64,000 nucleotides of DNA from Mustelus asterias (taxonomy: Eukaryota): assembly GCF_964213995.1 (NCBI RefSeq), contig NC_135818.1, positions 61,690,001 to 61,754,000 of the forward strand, given 5' to 3'. The notes under the pieces were generated by a model. That model was not told the DNA's origin, did no database searches, and saw only the letters and a program-made list of their open reading frames with translations. Made by a program: the position numbers and the translations under genes. Positions 22,191-63,036 of this stretch are shown piece by piece. Every line of letters begins with the position of its first letter. The first letter of the stretch is position 1.

Positions 22191-22443
22191 TTATAAAATA
22201 ATGTTTCCTATCTGATTTTCAAACTGGACAATTGCTGGGCTGACAAGATGGCTCCAGTTGGTCAACTGCTGGCTTCTGGATGTTACTGAGCAGTTCAACA
22301 GAACTCAAACACCCTGGAATATAACACTCCTTGCATTGAACAAACATTCCAGCCATTCCAACACAATGGATTCGCAGAGATGTTGGACCCAGCCAGCTAT
22401 GGACAAAGGCAACTGTTTGCAACTCCTGGTCTCCAATATGTTT

Positions 22444-22579
22444 CTAAGTGTTACCTGTACCTAAGTGTTACCTGTTCCTAAGTGTTACCTGTACCTAAGC
22501 GTTACCTGTTCCTAAGTGCTACCTGTACCTAAATGTTACCTGTTCCTAACTGTTACCTGTACCTAAGTGTTACCTGTTC
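22444..22579. repeat. Minisatellite, 8 x 17 bp with a 34-bp higher-order period
   Basis: Unit CTAAGTGTTACCTGT(A/T)C, with A and T strictly alternating. Confidence 0.95.
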
Positions 22580-22971
22580 AAACACACAATGGCTTTCAAC
22601 CAGGAGCCTTGTTTAACAACCAGAAACCAGTGTCACATGACCGAGACCTGAGCTGTCTGACTTCCGTTAAATAACCAGCTGTTGGAAGTTACACAGGCAG
22701 CCATTGCTTTAACCTCCAAAGAGAAACAGTAGCTCCAGGCAAGCAGTCTGTGCTGTCTACCATCAAGCAGGTGATAGCAGAGAGAACTCTGGCCCTCATC
22801 AAAACTGAAATACCGGAACAATGGAACTTGGGCCTTCAAGTCTAACTCAACTCAATGTGGCTTCTCGCTGGTGGAAGTCTTGCTTCTGAGAAGATGGATC
22901 ACTCTGCGACAGTCACCCTCCCCTCTGAAGAAACATTCCATTAGACTCTTGATTCTGGACTCTGGACACTT

Positions 22972-23118: not shown

Positions 23119-24157
23119 ATAAAACCCTAACCTGTATGTTGTTGTGGTCTGGCCCTCAACGTCCTTCCTATCCCTTGTCCCTCATTGTATTGGATGAGTG
23201 CAAAGGGCTTTCATTGCAAAAACTCTCTCTGTGGTTTTGTGTGTGTGAAAAAAAACCAACCCCTCTTATTTTGTTGTTGAGGATTAACCAGCCAATGCAC
23301 GGTGAGTACTCAAATCTCCTGAGCTTTTATTACTTGCTAGCAAGGAGAACAGACACATTGAATTTCACTATGATGTTCTGTTGATTCATACAGATACTTA
23401 ACAGTTATACTTAATTACAGCAAATGAGAAACGAGCAAATTTCGAATCTTCCATTTACATACATAGTCCTCCAATCATAGCATAGCTTTTTGCTCTTTCT
23501 TATCCAATAAAAAAAACATCTCCTTCATTACCATAATATGTCAACATATCTTGTTTTTGGTATTTGTCATGGTAACTTGTCTTTGTTTCATCCTGTGGTC
23601 AAGACCAGGAATGCAGTGTTCATGAAACGGACACAAGGTTAGATTAGTCTCTTTCCTGAATGTGCAACTGCTGACTTCAATGAGGCCTTGTTTCCATATT
23701 TGCTGACAGAGTTGCCTGCCCTTGTTGTTGTAACTTATTTCCACACCAGCATCTGCAGTTTTTAACTGTTTTTAACTATAGTTTCACATGACCCAGCAAC
23801 CCCCTGGTGCTTTATTTGAAGAGAGCACCCTTAATCTTGCAGAACAAAGTGAATTAAATATTTGGCCATAGTTGGAATTACAACTTAATTTCCACATTAT
23901 CTTAGCTCGGGTTTGCTGTGCAGGTTACTCTTAGAGGATTGGAATGGGGTGGGGAAAATACATCAACACTTGTAAAGGGGGAAATCAAACATTAAAACAA
24001 AATACTTTTCTGTTTATGGAGATCGGGACTATTTAAATTACTTCCCCCCCCGCCTGTCCATAACAAGGATGAGAAAACATTCATGTCATAATGTATATAC
24101 AGTAAGAAGTCTCACAACACCAGGTTAAAGTCCAACAGGTTTATTTGGTAGCAAATA

Positions 24158-24194
24158 CCATAAGCTTTCGGAGCAATGCTCCTTCGTCAGATGG
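24158..24194 (-). ncRNA. Minimal type I hammerhead ribozyme motif
   Basis: CCAT-CTGACGA-A-GGAGC-ATT-GCTCC-GAAA-GCTT-ATGG. Confidence 0.75.
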
Positions 24195-24861
24195 AGTGGT
24201 CTCTGTTCTCAAACAGGGCACAGACACAGAAATCAAATTACAGAATACTGATTAGAATGCAAATCTCTACAGCCAGCCAGGTCTTAAATGCACAGACAAT
24301 GTGGGTGGAGGGAGCATTCAACACAGGTTAAAGAGATGTGTATTGTCTCCAGACAGTACAGCTTGTGAAATTGTGCAAGTCCAGGAGTCAAGCTGTGGGG
24401 GTTACTGATAATGTGACATAAATCCAACATCCCGGTTTAGACCGTCCTCATGTGTGCGAAACTTGGCTATCAGTTTCTGCTCAGTGACTCTGTGCTGTCG
24501 TGTGTCGTGAAGGCCGCCTTGGAGAGCGTTCTCCAAGGCGGCCTTCACGACACACGACAGCGCAGAGCCGCTGAGCAGAAACTGATAAGCCAAGTTTCGC
24601 ACACATGAGGACGGTCTAAACCGGGATGTTGGATTTATGTCACATTATCAGTAACCCCCACAGCTTGACTCCTGGACTTGCACAATTTCACAAGCTGTAC
24701 TGTCTGGAGACAATACACATCTCTTTAACCTGTGTTGAATGCTCCCTCCACCCACATTGTCTGTGCATTTAAGACCTGGCTGGCTGTAGAGATTTGCATT
24801 CTAATCAGTATTCTGTAATTTGATTTCTGTGTCTGTGCCCTGTTTGAGAACAGAGACCACT

Positions 24862-24898
24862 CCATCTGACGAAGGAGCATTACTCCGAAAGCTTATGG
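24862..24898 (+). ncRNA. Minimal type I hammerhead ribozyme motif
   Basis: CCAT-CTGACGA-A-GGAG-CATTA-CTCC-GAAA-GCTT-ATGG. Confidence 0.75.
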
Positions 24899-25112
24899 TA
24901 TTTGCTACCAAATAAACCTGTTGGACTTTAACCTGGTGTTGTGAGACTTCTTACTGTGCTTACCCCAGTCCAACGCTGGCATCTCCACATCATTATGTAT
25001 ATAACCAGAGACTTAAGGACCTCAATAGAGGAAAGGAGGGGAACCCTGCAAGATACGCACTCATCCTGTTTCACACTTCTTCCCCCAGCCCTGCCTATAA
25101 ACATCCCTATAA

Positions 25113-25206
25113 GTCCACTCACCTGATGAAGGAGCAGTGCTCTGAAAGTTCGTGCTACCAAATAAACCTATTGGACTTTAACCTGGTCTTGTGAGACTTC
25201 TTACTA
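25113..25206 (+). mobile_element. Solo PLE 3' terminus with hammerhead motif (25120-25154)
   Basis: CAC-CTGATGA-A-GGAGC-AGT-GCTCT-GAAA-GTTC-GTG, then 'aaataaacctattggactttaacctgg'. Confidence 0.8.
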
Positions 25207-25334
25207 TGAACATCCCGGCAGCGAGATTCAGATCATGAATTGAAACACCAGGTTATTTCAATGGCGTCTACTACAACCATTTAGCTTGAACATCATTCAT
25301 GTGACTGGGAGAGAGAACATCATTGCTGATCCAC

Positions 25335-26346
25335 TGTCACAAAAGTAAAATGATTGATGTGGACCTGACTCATACAAAAAAAAGCTTTGGTGTATATTTT
25401 ATGTTAGTGCATGCATTCTGATTTTTGTAATTTAAGTTACGGTAGATCTGGTAAGAAGTAGTTGAGAAATTGAACTGTCTTATAATTATGGTGCTTCCTT
25501 TCTAAAAGAAAATGGCAGGAGATGTCAAGGAGCTGGGCTAAGATGAAGATTAAAGAAATGGATAAAATGACATTGATAAGGATTCAGCTACATTGAGGGC
25601 TTTTGGTTTGAGGATTAGCCTACTACAGAGTGAACGGGTATTTACCTAAGTGAAGTGGAGAACAATAGGGCATGGGAATGTAGGCATTAAAGATAAAGAG
25701 GGTAGGAGTTCAAAGGGAGAAATAAGAATGGATGTCGGATGAGGGAATTCTAAGACAATTTGTTTAGATAATATGACATCAAAAGGAATAAACAGCATAT
25801 TAGTGGCAGGATTAGCCCTGTACTAGAGGAGAATAGCTGACTGGTGACCACTATGCCCACAGGAAGCAGAGCTCTCCCAAAACAATCTGTTGCTTGAAGG
25901 CTGCTGTTTTACATCCTAAGTGGGCTACTCTAAACCAGAAGGAAATTTCCCAAAAGAAAGATATAGGTCAAGCGTGGTAATTATCACTGGATGTGGCTTA
26001 TAGTGTCAAAATCTATGGGGTATTGTGTTGGGAAGGTCTATTGGAGTTGAGGAAAGTAGGTAGTTTTGGAATAGGGTTAAATGAAGTATACTGTGTGTGT
26101 AGCTTTTACTGCAATTAGTAGTGGTTTTTGTTCTGTATTTTTGGCTTTTTTGTTGTGTGTTTTACAGTTTAATAAACATATTTTATTTGAATGATTACAA
26201 CAAGACCTTAATTTTCCTCACAGGTTTGCATCTCTTTCCTCACATGATACCAAATTGCAAAATATATGGTTAAGAACCGGCTTTCCATGTTTCCCTTCTG
26301 GGATTTGGGATACCCTCGCATTTAAATATCAGGGGGAGTCTTTACA
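25335..26346 (+). mobile_element. Possible long solo-LTR-like element
   Basis: TG...CA ends, AATAAA followed by a T-rich tract; no TSD seen. Confidence 0.25.
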
Positions 26347-26551
26347 ATTCTGCCTGAATAGACGGCCTCTCCACCTCCAAACATGCCATGAGTATGAGCG
26401 TAAACTCCCCCCCCCACCCATATAATCTGCACAACTTTCTCAGCAGCTCAAAGCTCTGGTGGATTTTGTTCCAATTGGAGACTGCAACTTGTGTTAAATC
26501 TGATTTACCCTGCTTTTTGCAAATAAAAGGTTGCATTAGAATTGTTTGCAG

Positions 26552-26626
26552 CAGTATGTTTTGCTGTCTGATTTGCTCAAACTTATTGTTGGCTCCTACG
26601 TACACAGTTGCCAACTCTTGGAACAG
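26552..26626 (+). CDS. Candidate 75-nt exon (phase 0-0)
   Basis: 'attgtttgcag|' ... 'cag|gttagt'; QYVLLSDLLKLIVGSYVHSCQLLEQ. Confidence 0.35.
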
Positions 26627-27085
26627 GTTAGTCATTTTTATAGAGCTGTGAAACACAAATTGCATTTCATGCACCATGCATTTTGGCACTACATTATAGA
26701 GGACAATTCCATTCAGTTGTACCCTTGAGATTGGATATGTTGTAAATGCATGGATGGAACTCATATTTTAAACTGATCTGCAATTTTACTGTAAGTAACA
26801 ATAAAGTGACAAAGTGCACAAGTACTTAAGTGGGACATGCAGTGCGAAAGGAGCAATTATATTTTTTTCTGTATCTTTTATTCCAAATCATTGTGAAGCC
26901 ACATGGAACTACTGTGCAATGGGATGGGAATCACAATAAAATTTGATTTATCACTGGCAATTGTAAACTGTGTTCTATTAATCTGCATTTCATCACACTG
27001 ATTTAATGCCCCAACATCAAATACACCAGCGGCACCTTGCAGTTTTGTAGTTTGTATGTAATAAAACATTCCAGGGCATTTCCAG

Positions 27086-61859: not shown

Positions 61860-62500
61860 TTGTTGTCTACCTGATACGCTGCAGGAAAGGATGTCCCGAG
61901 GCGTGGTACATTGGCGAGACCATGCAGACACTACGACAACGATAAACGGACATCATGCGACAATCGCCAGGCAAGAGTGTTCCCTTCCAGTCAGGGAACA
62001 CTTCAGTAGTCAAGGGTATTCAGCCTTCGATCTTCGGGTAAGCGTTCTCCAAGGCGGCCTTCAAGACACATGACAAAGCAGAATCGCCAAGCAGAAACTG
62101 ATAGCCAAGTTCTGCACGCATGAGGATGGCCTCAACCAGGATCTTGGGTTCATGTCACACTACACATAACTCCCACCATTTGACCTAGGCTTGCAAAATC
62201 CGACTAACTGTCCTGGCTTGAGACAATTCACACCTCTTTAACCTATGACTTTCCCTCTCTCCGCTCGCACAGTCTGTACCTGTAAAGACTTGATTACCTG
62301 CAAAGACTCGCATTCCAACCATTATCTTGCAATTGTGTCTTTGCCTATATGTGCCATGTTTGTTAACTTACCTCTCCACTCACCTGATGAAGGGGCAGCG
62401 CTCTGAAAGCTCATGGTTCCAAATAAACCTGTTGGACTTTAACCTGGTGTAAGACTTCTTACTGTGCCCACCCCAGTCCAACACCAGCATCTCCACGTCA
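61860..62500 (+). mobile_element. Penelope-like element 3' part (family of the 24.1-25.0 kb palindrome), with GIY-YIG and hammerhead motif (62381-62415)
   Basis: VVYLIRCRKGCPEAWYIGETMQTLRQRINGH..SVLQGGLQDT; CAC-CTGATGA..GAAAGCTC. Confidence 0.9.
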
Positions 62501-63036
62501 TCTTTTCTGGCCAGTCTCTGTGCATCCCCAATAGACATCTGACGCTCACTGGTCTCATCTAGAGCCTTAAGGCCCAATATTGGGTGCACCTTAAACCTGT
62601 CCATTCTGGACTGAACCGATTTCCAAACCTTCGACTCTTGTAAATCCTGTCATGTCAGCATCCAAACAAAAGACTTGTACTCACAATTTAGAAGTGATTT
62701 GACCAAAGTTGGAAATTCCTGCTCAACAAGCTTTCGGGCAGAGTAAACTTCACTTTTGATTAGGGCTTTGTTTAGGCAAAATCGAAGCTGTTTGGTTATC
62801 ATCAGCAACATTGGCACTGACTCTATCTACTTCCATACTGCTTCCTAGGCTGAGCTCAGTGGACCAGAGTGGTGCTTGCTGCCCAGAAATGGTCTGTATT
62901 CAAGGCCAGCTTCATCCTCATCCAGAATATTGTCCATTAAGCCTGCCATTGTTGGAGACTTGTTTACACCTTGATCATGGTGATAGATTGATTTTTTTAA
63001 TGCTCTCCCCACCAAACACCACACCTGTGTCAGGAG

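What the first reader, a model, noticed from the sequence alone, without database searches (positions are those of the whole stretch)
24099..24994. Near-perfect 428-bp-arm palindrome with a 4-nt spacer, built from a Penelope 3' end
Seen: arms 24099-24525 and 24530-24957 differ by about 4 substitutions and 1 indel around spacer GCGT, and the unit is flanked by ATGTATATA on both sides, so it looks like one insertion. Known: PLEs often leave inverted pseudo-LTR arrangements. Inference: a virtually spacerless palindrome this long is normally unstable; it could extrude a cruciform, and intronic transcription in either direction would give a ~430-bp dsRNA hairpin (ADAR/Dicer substrate).
Basis: partly seen in the sequence, partly recalled or inferred. 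Interest (0 to 1): 0.7.

Follow-up and report, generated by a model that had tools for sequence, protein, structure and literature searches.

The report
Young spacerless Penelope retrotransposon palindrome
This mirror-image stretch is a single young insertion of a Penelope-like jumping gene in an already described head-to-head layout, likely made when both cut DNA strands copied the element's RNA; long gapless ones like it are common among young sister copies but scarce among older ones, so they are likely lost or altered over time.

Summary
Observation confirmed: arms 24099-24525 and 24530-24957 differ by 4 substitutions and 1 indel around GCGT. It is the 3' end of an endonuclease-bearing Penelope-like element of Neptune/Nematis type (sister copy with RT, linker zinc finger, GIY-YIG). 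The layout is inverted copy + sense copy + one-sided ~35-nt tail + target-site duplication, which is published for PLEs. Corrections: the TSD is by family register 12 bp with one mismatch, in a symmetric TG-N16-CA target (54 of 75 sisters). GCGT is native element sequence. A relative's contig shows the empty site. It is not exceptional: 9,893 tail ends genome-wide, roughly 90-1,200 long near-spacerless palindromes. The best mechanism is two-ended target-primed reverse transcription, since the tail-less arm is the longer one in 12 of 42 young copies. Extra result: spacers of 20 nt or less occur in 8 of 23 young, 1 of 18 middle and 1 of 23 old long pairs (p=0.003), which fits the instability idea. 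dsRNA and an intronic position are untested. This scan has noted this family's palindromes and target rule many times on other DNA; I found no note of the age trend.

The parts
24083..24085 (+). Left half of the symmetric target site (ATG, family consensus [C/A]TG), 2 nt outside the TSD
   Evidence: logo and window line
24088..24099 (+). Left copy of the 12-bp target-site duplication (exact 9-bp core 24091-24099)
   Evidence: empty-site contig
24099..24525 (-). Inverted, 5'-truncated, tail-less copy: end of the GIY-YIG coding region (stop at 24402-24404) plus pLTR, ending at the element's short 3' end
24158..24194 (-). Minimal hammerhead-ribozyme motif in the inverted arm (stem II intact); cleavage untested
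   Evidence: sequence; fold; features as in PMC4209133 passages
24526..24529 (+). 4-nt loop GCGT, native element sequence belonging to the sense arm; 1-nt microhomology at 24525
   Evidence: same letters upstream of this point in the older copy at 62041
24525..24957 (+). Sense, 5'-truncated copy: about the last 42 codons of the endonuclease (frame broken by a 1-nt insertion at 24588; stop 24652-24654) plus pLTR
24862..24898 (+). Minimal hammerhead motif in the sense arm; G>A at 24882 weakens stem II (-8.8 vs -11.4 kcal/mol)
24958..24991 (+). One-sided ~34-37-nt PLE tail
   Evidence: loose contig ends pile up at 24958-59 and 24992-93 in other runs
24992..25003 (+). Right copy of the 12-bp TSD (one mismatch at 24994 against 24090)
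25006..25008 (+). Right half of the symmetric target site (CAG)

Best explanation
This is one 5'-truncated insertion of a young Neptune/Nematis-type Penelope-like retrotransposon, two copies of its 3' end set head to head between a 12-bp target duplication, likely made by two-ended target-primed reverse transcription. Inferred steps: a paired RT-endonuclease nicks both strands of a symmetric TG-N16-CA site 12 nt apart. Each 3' end primes cDNA on RNA from the same source, one from the tail end and one from the start site about 37 nt inside. Both cDNAs stopped at nearly the same point, probably the broken 5' end of the template, and were joined through a 1-nt microhomology, leaving a 4-nt loop. 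The product has no coding capacity and no selected function is evident. It would be prone to hairpin or cruciform processing, and such long spacerless copies appear to be lost or altered with age.
For: [quoted passage not shown] Inverted arms end at reference about 2443-2451 and tail arms at about 2480-2484. Among 42 young two-armed copies the tail arm is longer by >20 nt in 14, the tail-less arm in 12, and 16 are within 20 nt, with both signs; a fold-back of the tail-bearing cDNA cannot make the tail-less arm longer. Near-equal stop points: 8 of 20 pairs chosen only for both arms reaching 300 bp, permutation mean 2.2, 1 of 20,000. The target is two-fold symmetric in 54 of 75 inverted and 8 of 12 solo insertions against about 1% background. 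Arms share variants: 14 private + 11 polymorphic shared in 16,023 bp; 7 + 9 in 8,894 bp. In vitro the anole Poseidon protein cleaves and extends both strands, starts RT at two sites bounding the tail and is a predicted dimer (PMC11167929, parts 1-2 of 4 read).
Against: For this copy alone (sense arm 5 nt longer, 1-nt microhomology, 4-nt loop) a cDNA fold-back fits equally well. All six small positive offsets carry 1-3-nt microhomology and loops of 3 nt or more, as hairpins would. 'Same RNA molecule' is not shown: shared variants also follow from one source locus or later gene conversion, and arms disagree at a common family polymorphism in this copy (reference 2061, a CpG) and in L153 (2087). 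The in vitro data are for a Poseidon element with an ATT preference, not this clade. No spanning reads.
Confidence: 0.62

Rival explanations
1. Fold-back (self-priming): the tail-primed cDNA stopped, its 3' base paired back across a 4-nt loop and was extended on itself to make the second arm, which was then joined to the second target end.
For: Loop of hairpin size on the tail-bearing arm with 1-nt microhomology; the same at L007, L049, L154. Self-priming was proposed for PLE junction palindromes in PMC3846280 (passages), there on an antisense template.
Against: Cannot give the 12 of 42 copies with a longer tail-less arm or the four small negative offsets. Does not explain why the second arm stops at the same place about 37 nt short of the tail in spacerless and long-spacer copies alike.
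Confidence: 0.27
2. Post-insertion origin: a solo copy was later duplicated in inverted form by replication template switching or break repair, or a second copy landed at the same site.
For: Repeated hits at one target site occur: L127, L151, L155 and L158 share a TSD.
Against: One TSD encloses both arms. The inverted arm ends at the family's fixed short end. 52 of 70 consecutive tail-bearing copies had an inverted partner called (a few are doubtful). All 20 pairs among 100 listed matches are head to head.
Confidence: 0.07
3. Assembly or read fold-back artefact.
For: No read or contig spanning the locus in four runs.
Against: Flanks are not mirrored and are joined in the right order by a relative's contig. 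Arms differ at five sites and in the tail. The joint position differs from copy to copy across dozens of loci with proper TSDs.
Confidence: 0.04

Closest known systems
Endonuclease-bearing PLE insertions with an adjacent inverted 5'-truncated copy and one-sided 30-40-bp tail (PMC8557442, passages incl. Fig. 2 legend; Pen2a_Av in PMC3846280, passages)
   Same: Head-to-head inverted copy, tail on one end only, TSD, palindrome at the inverted junction
   Different: Here the arms reach into the ORF and mirror each other almost completely (428 bp, 4-nt loop); the passages read give no target consensus and no statistics on stop points
Neptune/Nematis clades of C-terminal EN+ PLEs (PMC8557442, passages)
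   Same: C-terminal GIY-YIG with Cys pair between the motifs, CX2-5CxxC linker, DKG, hammerhead in the pLTR
   Different: Targets a spaced symmetric site rather than the microsatellites that the linker was proposed to favour; no tree was built
Poseidon of Anolis carolinensis, PAc (PMC11167929, parts 1-2 of 4)
   Same: Two RT start sites bounding the tail match the two genomic ends; both strands cut and extended; predicted dimer
   Different: Different clade (no linker finger); ATT cleavage preference; inverted products not described in the parts read
Inverted Alu pair exclusion in human (PMC3215922, passages; review PMC7999016, passages)
   Same: Closely spaced ~300-bp inverted pairs are scarce below about 24 bp of spacer; here older long pairs pile up just above 20 nt
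   Different: Alu pairs arise from two insertions and part of the deficit may be insertional; here the pair is born in one event and subfamilies give a time axis
L1 twin priming (recalled, not from a call)
   Same: Second target strand primes on the RNA and gives an inverted 5' part
   Different: In L1 the inverted part is a different, upstream stretch; here both arms carry the same 3' sequence

Membership tests
EN+ Penelope-like element | Single ORF with RT and C-terminal GIY-YIG endonuclease | tested here: met
   In sister copy L031 (788-codon open frame): RVT_1, GIY-YIG 23.9 bits vs cut-off 22.6. The window holds only about the last 42 codons.
EN+ Penelope-like element | CCHH motif with two Cys between GIY and YIG; DKG motif | tested here: met
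   Read from P0001; motif definitions from PMC8557442 passages
EN+ Penelope-like element | 30-40-bp tail on one end; inverted 5'-truncated copy | tested here: met
EN+ Penelope-like element | Minimal hammerhead motif in the pLTR (extra base between 9 and 10.1, G10.1-C11.1, palindromic helix III) | tested here: met
   Read by eye from the sequence against PMC4209133 passages; local fold shows stems I and II but z only -0.7 to -1.3; Rfam found no hammerhead; cleavage not tested
EN+ Penelope-like element | Full-length copy with a direct upstream pLTR | not tested
   The longest copy fetched (L031) lacks the ORF's start; no full-length copy was sought
Neptune/Nematis | CX2-5CxxC linker between RT and EN | tested here: met
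   CX4CxxC at residues 650-658 of P0001
Neptune/Nematis | Phylogenetic placement of the RT | not tested
   No reference sequences were fetched
Penelope/Poseidon clade | Linker zinc finger absent | tested here: not met
   Finger present
Endogenous dsRNA/siRNA source | Transcription across both arms, editing or small RNAs | not testable with these tools
   No RNA reads for this locus were available

The most novel reading that the evidence does not exclude
This retrotransposon constantly seeds a vertebrate germ line with long, spacerless palindromes (about a third of young two-armed copies), and the host genome then removes or centre-edits nearly all of those with arms of 300 bp or more and spacers under about 20 nt, while short ones survive. 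The subfamilies would form a dated natural series for measuring palindrome fragility and its repair outcome in a non-mammalian vertebrate, and this 1.2%-diverged copy would be caught in mid-course.
Probability: 0.45. Interest if true: 0.62.

Novelty: new member of a known kind. Interest (0 to 1): 0.38.

Why it matters
As a locus it is ordinary for this genome. As a family it bears on two open questions. First, how PLEs make inverted insertions, which PMC8557442 calls undefined: the symmetric 12-nt staggered target and the two fixed ends give a direct in vitro test of two-ended priming. Second, how fast long spacerless palindromes are removed in vertebrates: the age trend, if it holds genome-wide, is a ready-made measurement. 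Whether such insertions feed ADAR or Dicer remains open.

Tried and rejected
Spanning evidence: four contig runs laid on 23500-25600 and four on 24972-25105; no piece spans the element and run X4 laid nothing. No RNA holder listed. Host gene: 209 unmasked stop-to-stop frames of 55 aa or more gave no Pfam match above a curated cut-off, only three sub-threshold hits; shorter exons were not examined. Rfam on L001, L031, L048: only sub-threshold miRNA hairpins, a by-product of the palindrome, and no hammerhead. PDB sequence search: nothing below E 0.84. The ESM Atlas gave no answer. Clustering of arm differences near the centre: 4 of 5 lie within 60 bp of the loop in this copy and spacerless sisters show the same trend (19 observed vs 7.3 expected), but long-spacer copies show it too (partly alignment-end noise, and the inner region is CpG-richer), so a specific stabilising effect is not supported. 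The first age test dropped distinct loci through a faulty duplicate filter and was redone. L048 was left out of the 42 because its partner was misassigned. Literature: searches for Penelope + palindrome + shark, + twin priming, + both strands/dimer/insertion preference, + symmetric/staggered target listed no paper describing the target rule or an age trend for PLE palindromes; only listings were seen for most hits, and subscription papers (e.g. Arkhipova 2006) are not in the library. bioRxiv 10.64898/2026.07.22.740005 (term search only) has no passage on it; its supplements were not seen.

Full report
Observation. The arms 24099-24525 and 24530-24957 align with four substitutions and one extra base around GCGT, and ATGTATATA occurs only at 24091 and 24995 in the window. 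The fold is far outside shuffles (z -86). A 34-nt stretch (24958-24991) lies between the right arm and the right TSD and has no mirror on the left.

Identity. The right arm has 2,838 first-look candidates in the genome; the 40 scored are 99% identical. [quoted passage not shown] Its last ~42 codons are the start of the window's arm. DKG, the Cys pair inside the GIY-YIG and a CX4CxxC linker are present; by PMC8557442 (passages) the linker marks Neptune/Nematis rather than Penelope/Poseidon. No tree was built. Each arm holds a minimal hammerhead motif with the features listed in PMC4209133 (passages; fold). That the host is a shark comes from earlier scan notes and my recall of its SINEs, not from a call.

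One insertion. A 206-nt contig from a run labelled as another organism aligns to 24990-25105 and is preceded by 55 letters, the 30 shown matching the left flank 24056-24085 with two differences: the empty site, from one contig in one run. Among 75 inverted sister insertions with an exact TSD, lengths are 12 in 35 and 13 in 20, and 54 of 75 lie in TG-N16-CA (background 1.2%); so do 8 of 12 solo insertions. The window's site fits with ATG at 24083 and CAG at 25006, which puts the TSD at 24088-24099 / 24992-25003, one mismatch. No read spans the element, but unmirrored flanks, the one-sided tail and the family pattern make an artefact unlikely.

How common. A 33-mer across the tail junction has 9,893 exact matches, from several subfamilies. 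Of the first 70 on contig C1, an inverted partner was called in 52 (a few doubtful; of the 18 without, four run off the fetched flank and two have tiny inverted arms seen). Spacers are 10 nt or less in 18 of 70 and 20 nt or less in 22 of 70; 3 of 70 combine that with arms of 300 bp or more, about 420 genome-wide (95% interval 88-1,189, assuming C1's start is typical). A young-subfamily 38-mer 300 bp inside the end has 616 matches; the 100 listed include 20 close pairs, all head to head (counted by eye). The layout is described: inverted 5'-truncated copy and one-sided 30-40-bp tail (PMC8557442 passages), palindromes at the inverted junction (PMC3846280 passages), inverted pLTRs as a curation hint (PMC8969392 passages).

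Mechanism. Shown: tail-less arms end at one fixed point and tail arms about 37 nt further on (loose ends). In 42 young two-armed copies the tail arm is longer in 14, the tail-less arm in 12, and 16 stop within 20 nt of each other, with offsets of both signs. In the 20 pairs chosen only for length, 8 stop within 20 nt (one has a 120-nt insert at the centre); permutation mean 2.2, 1 of 20,000. Arms of one insertion usually share variants, with exceptions at reference 2061 in this copy (a CpG) and 2087 in L153. Inferred: a symmetric target with a 12-nt stagger gives two equivalent 3' ends; both prime cDNA, from the two start sites shown in vitro for anole Poseidon, which also cuts and extends both strands and is a predicted dimer (PMC11167929 parts 1-2); equal stops would reflect a shared template end. 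Fold-back cannot be the general route but remains possible for this copy (loop on the tail arm, 1-nt microhomology). I began at 60% for fold-back and moved after earlier notes.

Stability. Among pairs with both arms reaching about 300 bp, spacers of 20 nt or less occur in 8 of 23 young (median arm identity 99.4%), 1 of 18 middle (97.9%) and 1 of 23 old (94%) insertions; Fisher p=0.003. Adding six pairs, among them two older-subfamily spacerless copies (L077, about 95% arm identity, and L118), gives 9 of 24 vs 4 of 46, p=0.007. In the old set the smallest offsets are 21-43 nt, while short old palindromes (arms 82-92 nt) keep 1-3-nt spacers (L090, L100, L105, L119). This resembles the scarcity of inverted Alu pairs below about 24 bp (PMC3215922 passages) and the length and spacer rules reviewed in PMC7999016 (passages). 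Caveats: small samples from the first part of four contigs, selection by exact patterns (both arms exact in most young and all middle pairs), spacer estimates inflate as arms diverge, and subfamilies could differ in mechanism; short palindromes may arise by a different stop. The window copy itself has survived to 1.2% arm difference.

RNA. If transcribed through, either strand would fold into a ~430-bp duplex that also buries both hammerheads. Nothing here shows transcription; no host exon was found.

Verdict. Real, a new member of a known kind, and one of hundreds. Interest 0.38.

Noticed in passing
window 25112-25208 (+): Older, about 81% identical Penelope pLTR fragment with a hammerhead-like core, about 110 bp right of the insertion; present in the relative's contig too.
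   Followed up: partly
window about 61880-62501 (+): Older solo copy of the same family's 3' end (74%), with GIY-YIG coding remnant and tail.
   Followed up: partly
L127, L151, L155, L158 (different places on C1, C2, C3): Four insertions with different joints share one 12-bp TSD, inside what looks like a CR1-type LINE; other near-shared TSDs at L046/L049 and L007/L023.
   Followed up: partly
L031:3093-7926: 4.8-kb palindrome with 2.4-kb arms and a 72-nt spacer, each arm with a long open RT-EN frame lacking the start.
   Followed up: partly
L164: Spacerless young palindrome with another repeat fragment of about 120 nt inserted at its centre, a possible trace of a break repaired at the axis.
   Followed up: no
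L051-L120: Many short stubs join at reference about 2345-2393, at and just upstream of the hammerhead.
   Followed up: no
window 26345-26767 (-): Sub-threshold Ndc10_N match (E 2.4e-4), possibly a Crypton-like tyrosine-recombinase remnant (recalled association).
   Followed up: no
window 22439-22580: 17-bp tandem minisatellite, about 8 copies.
   Followed up: no
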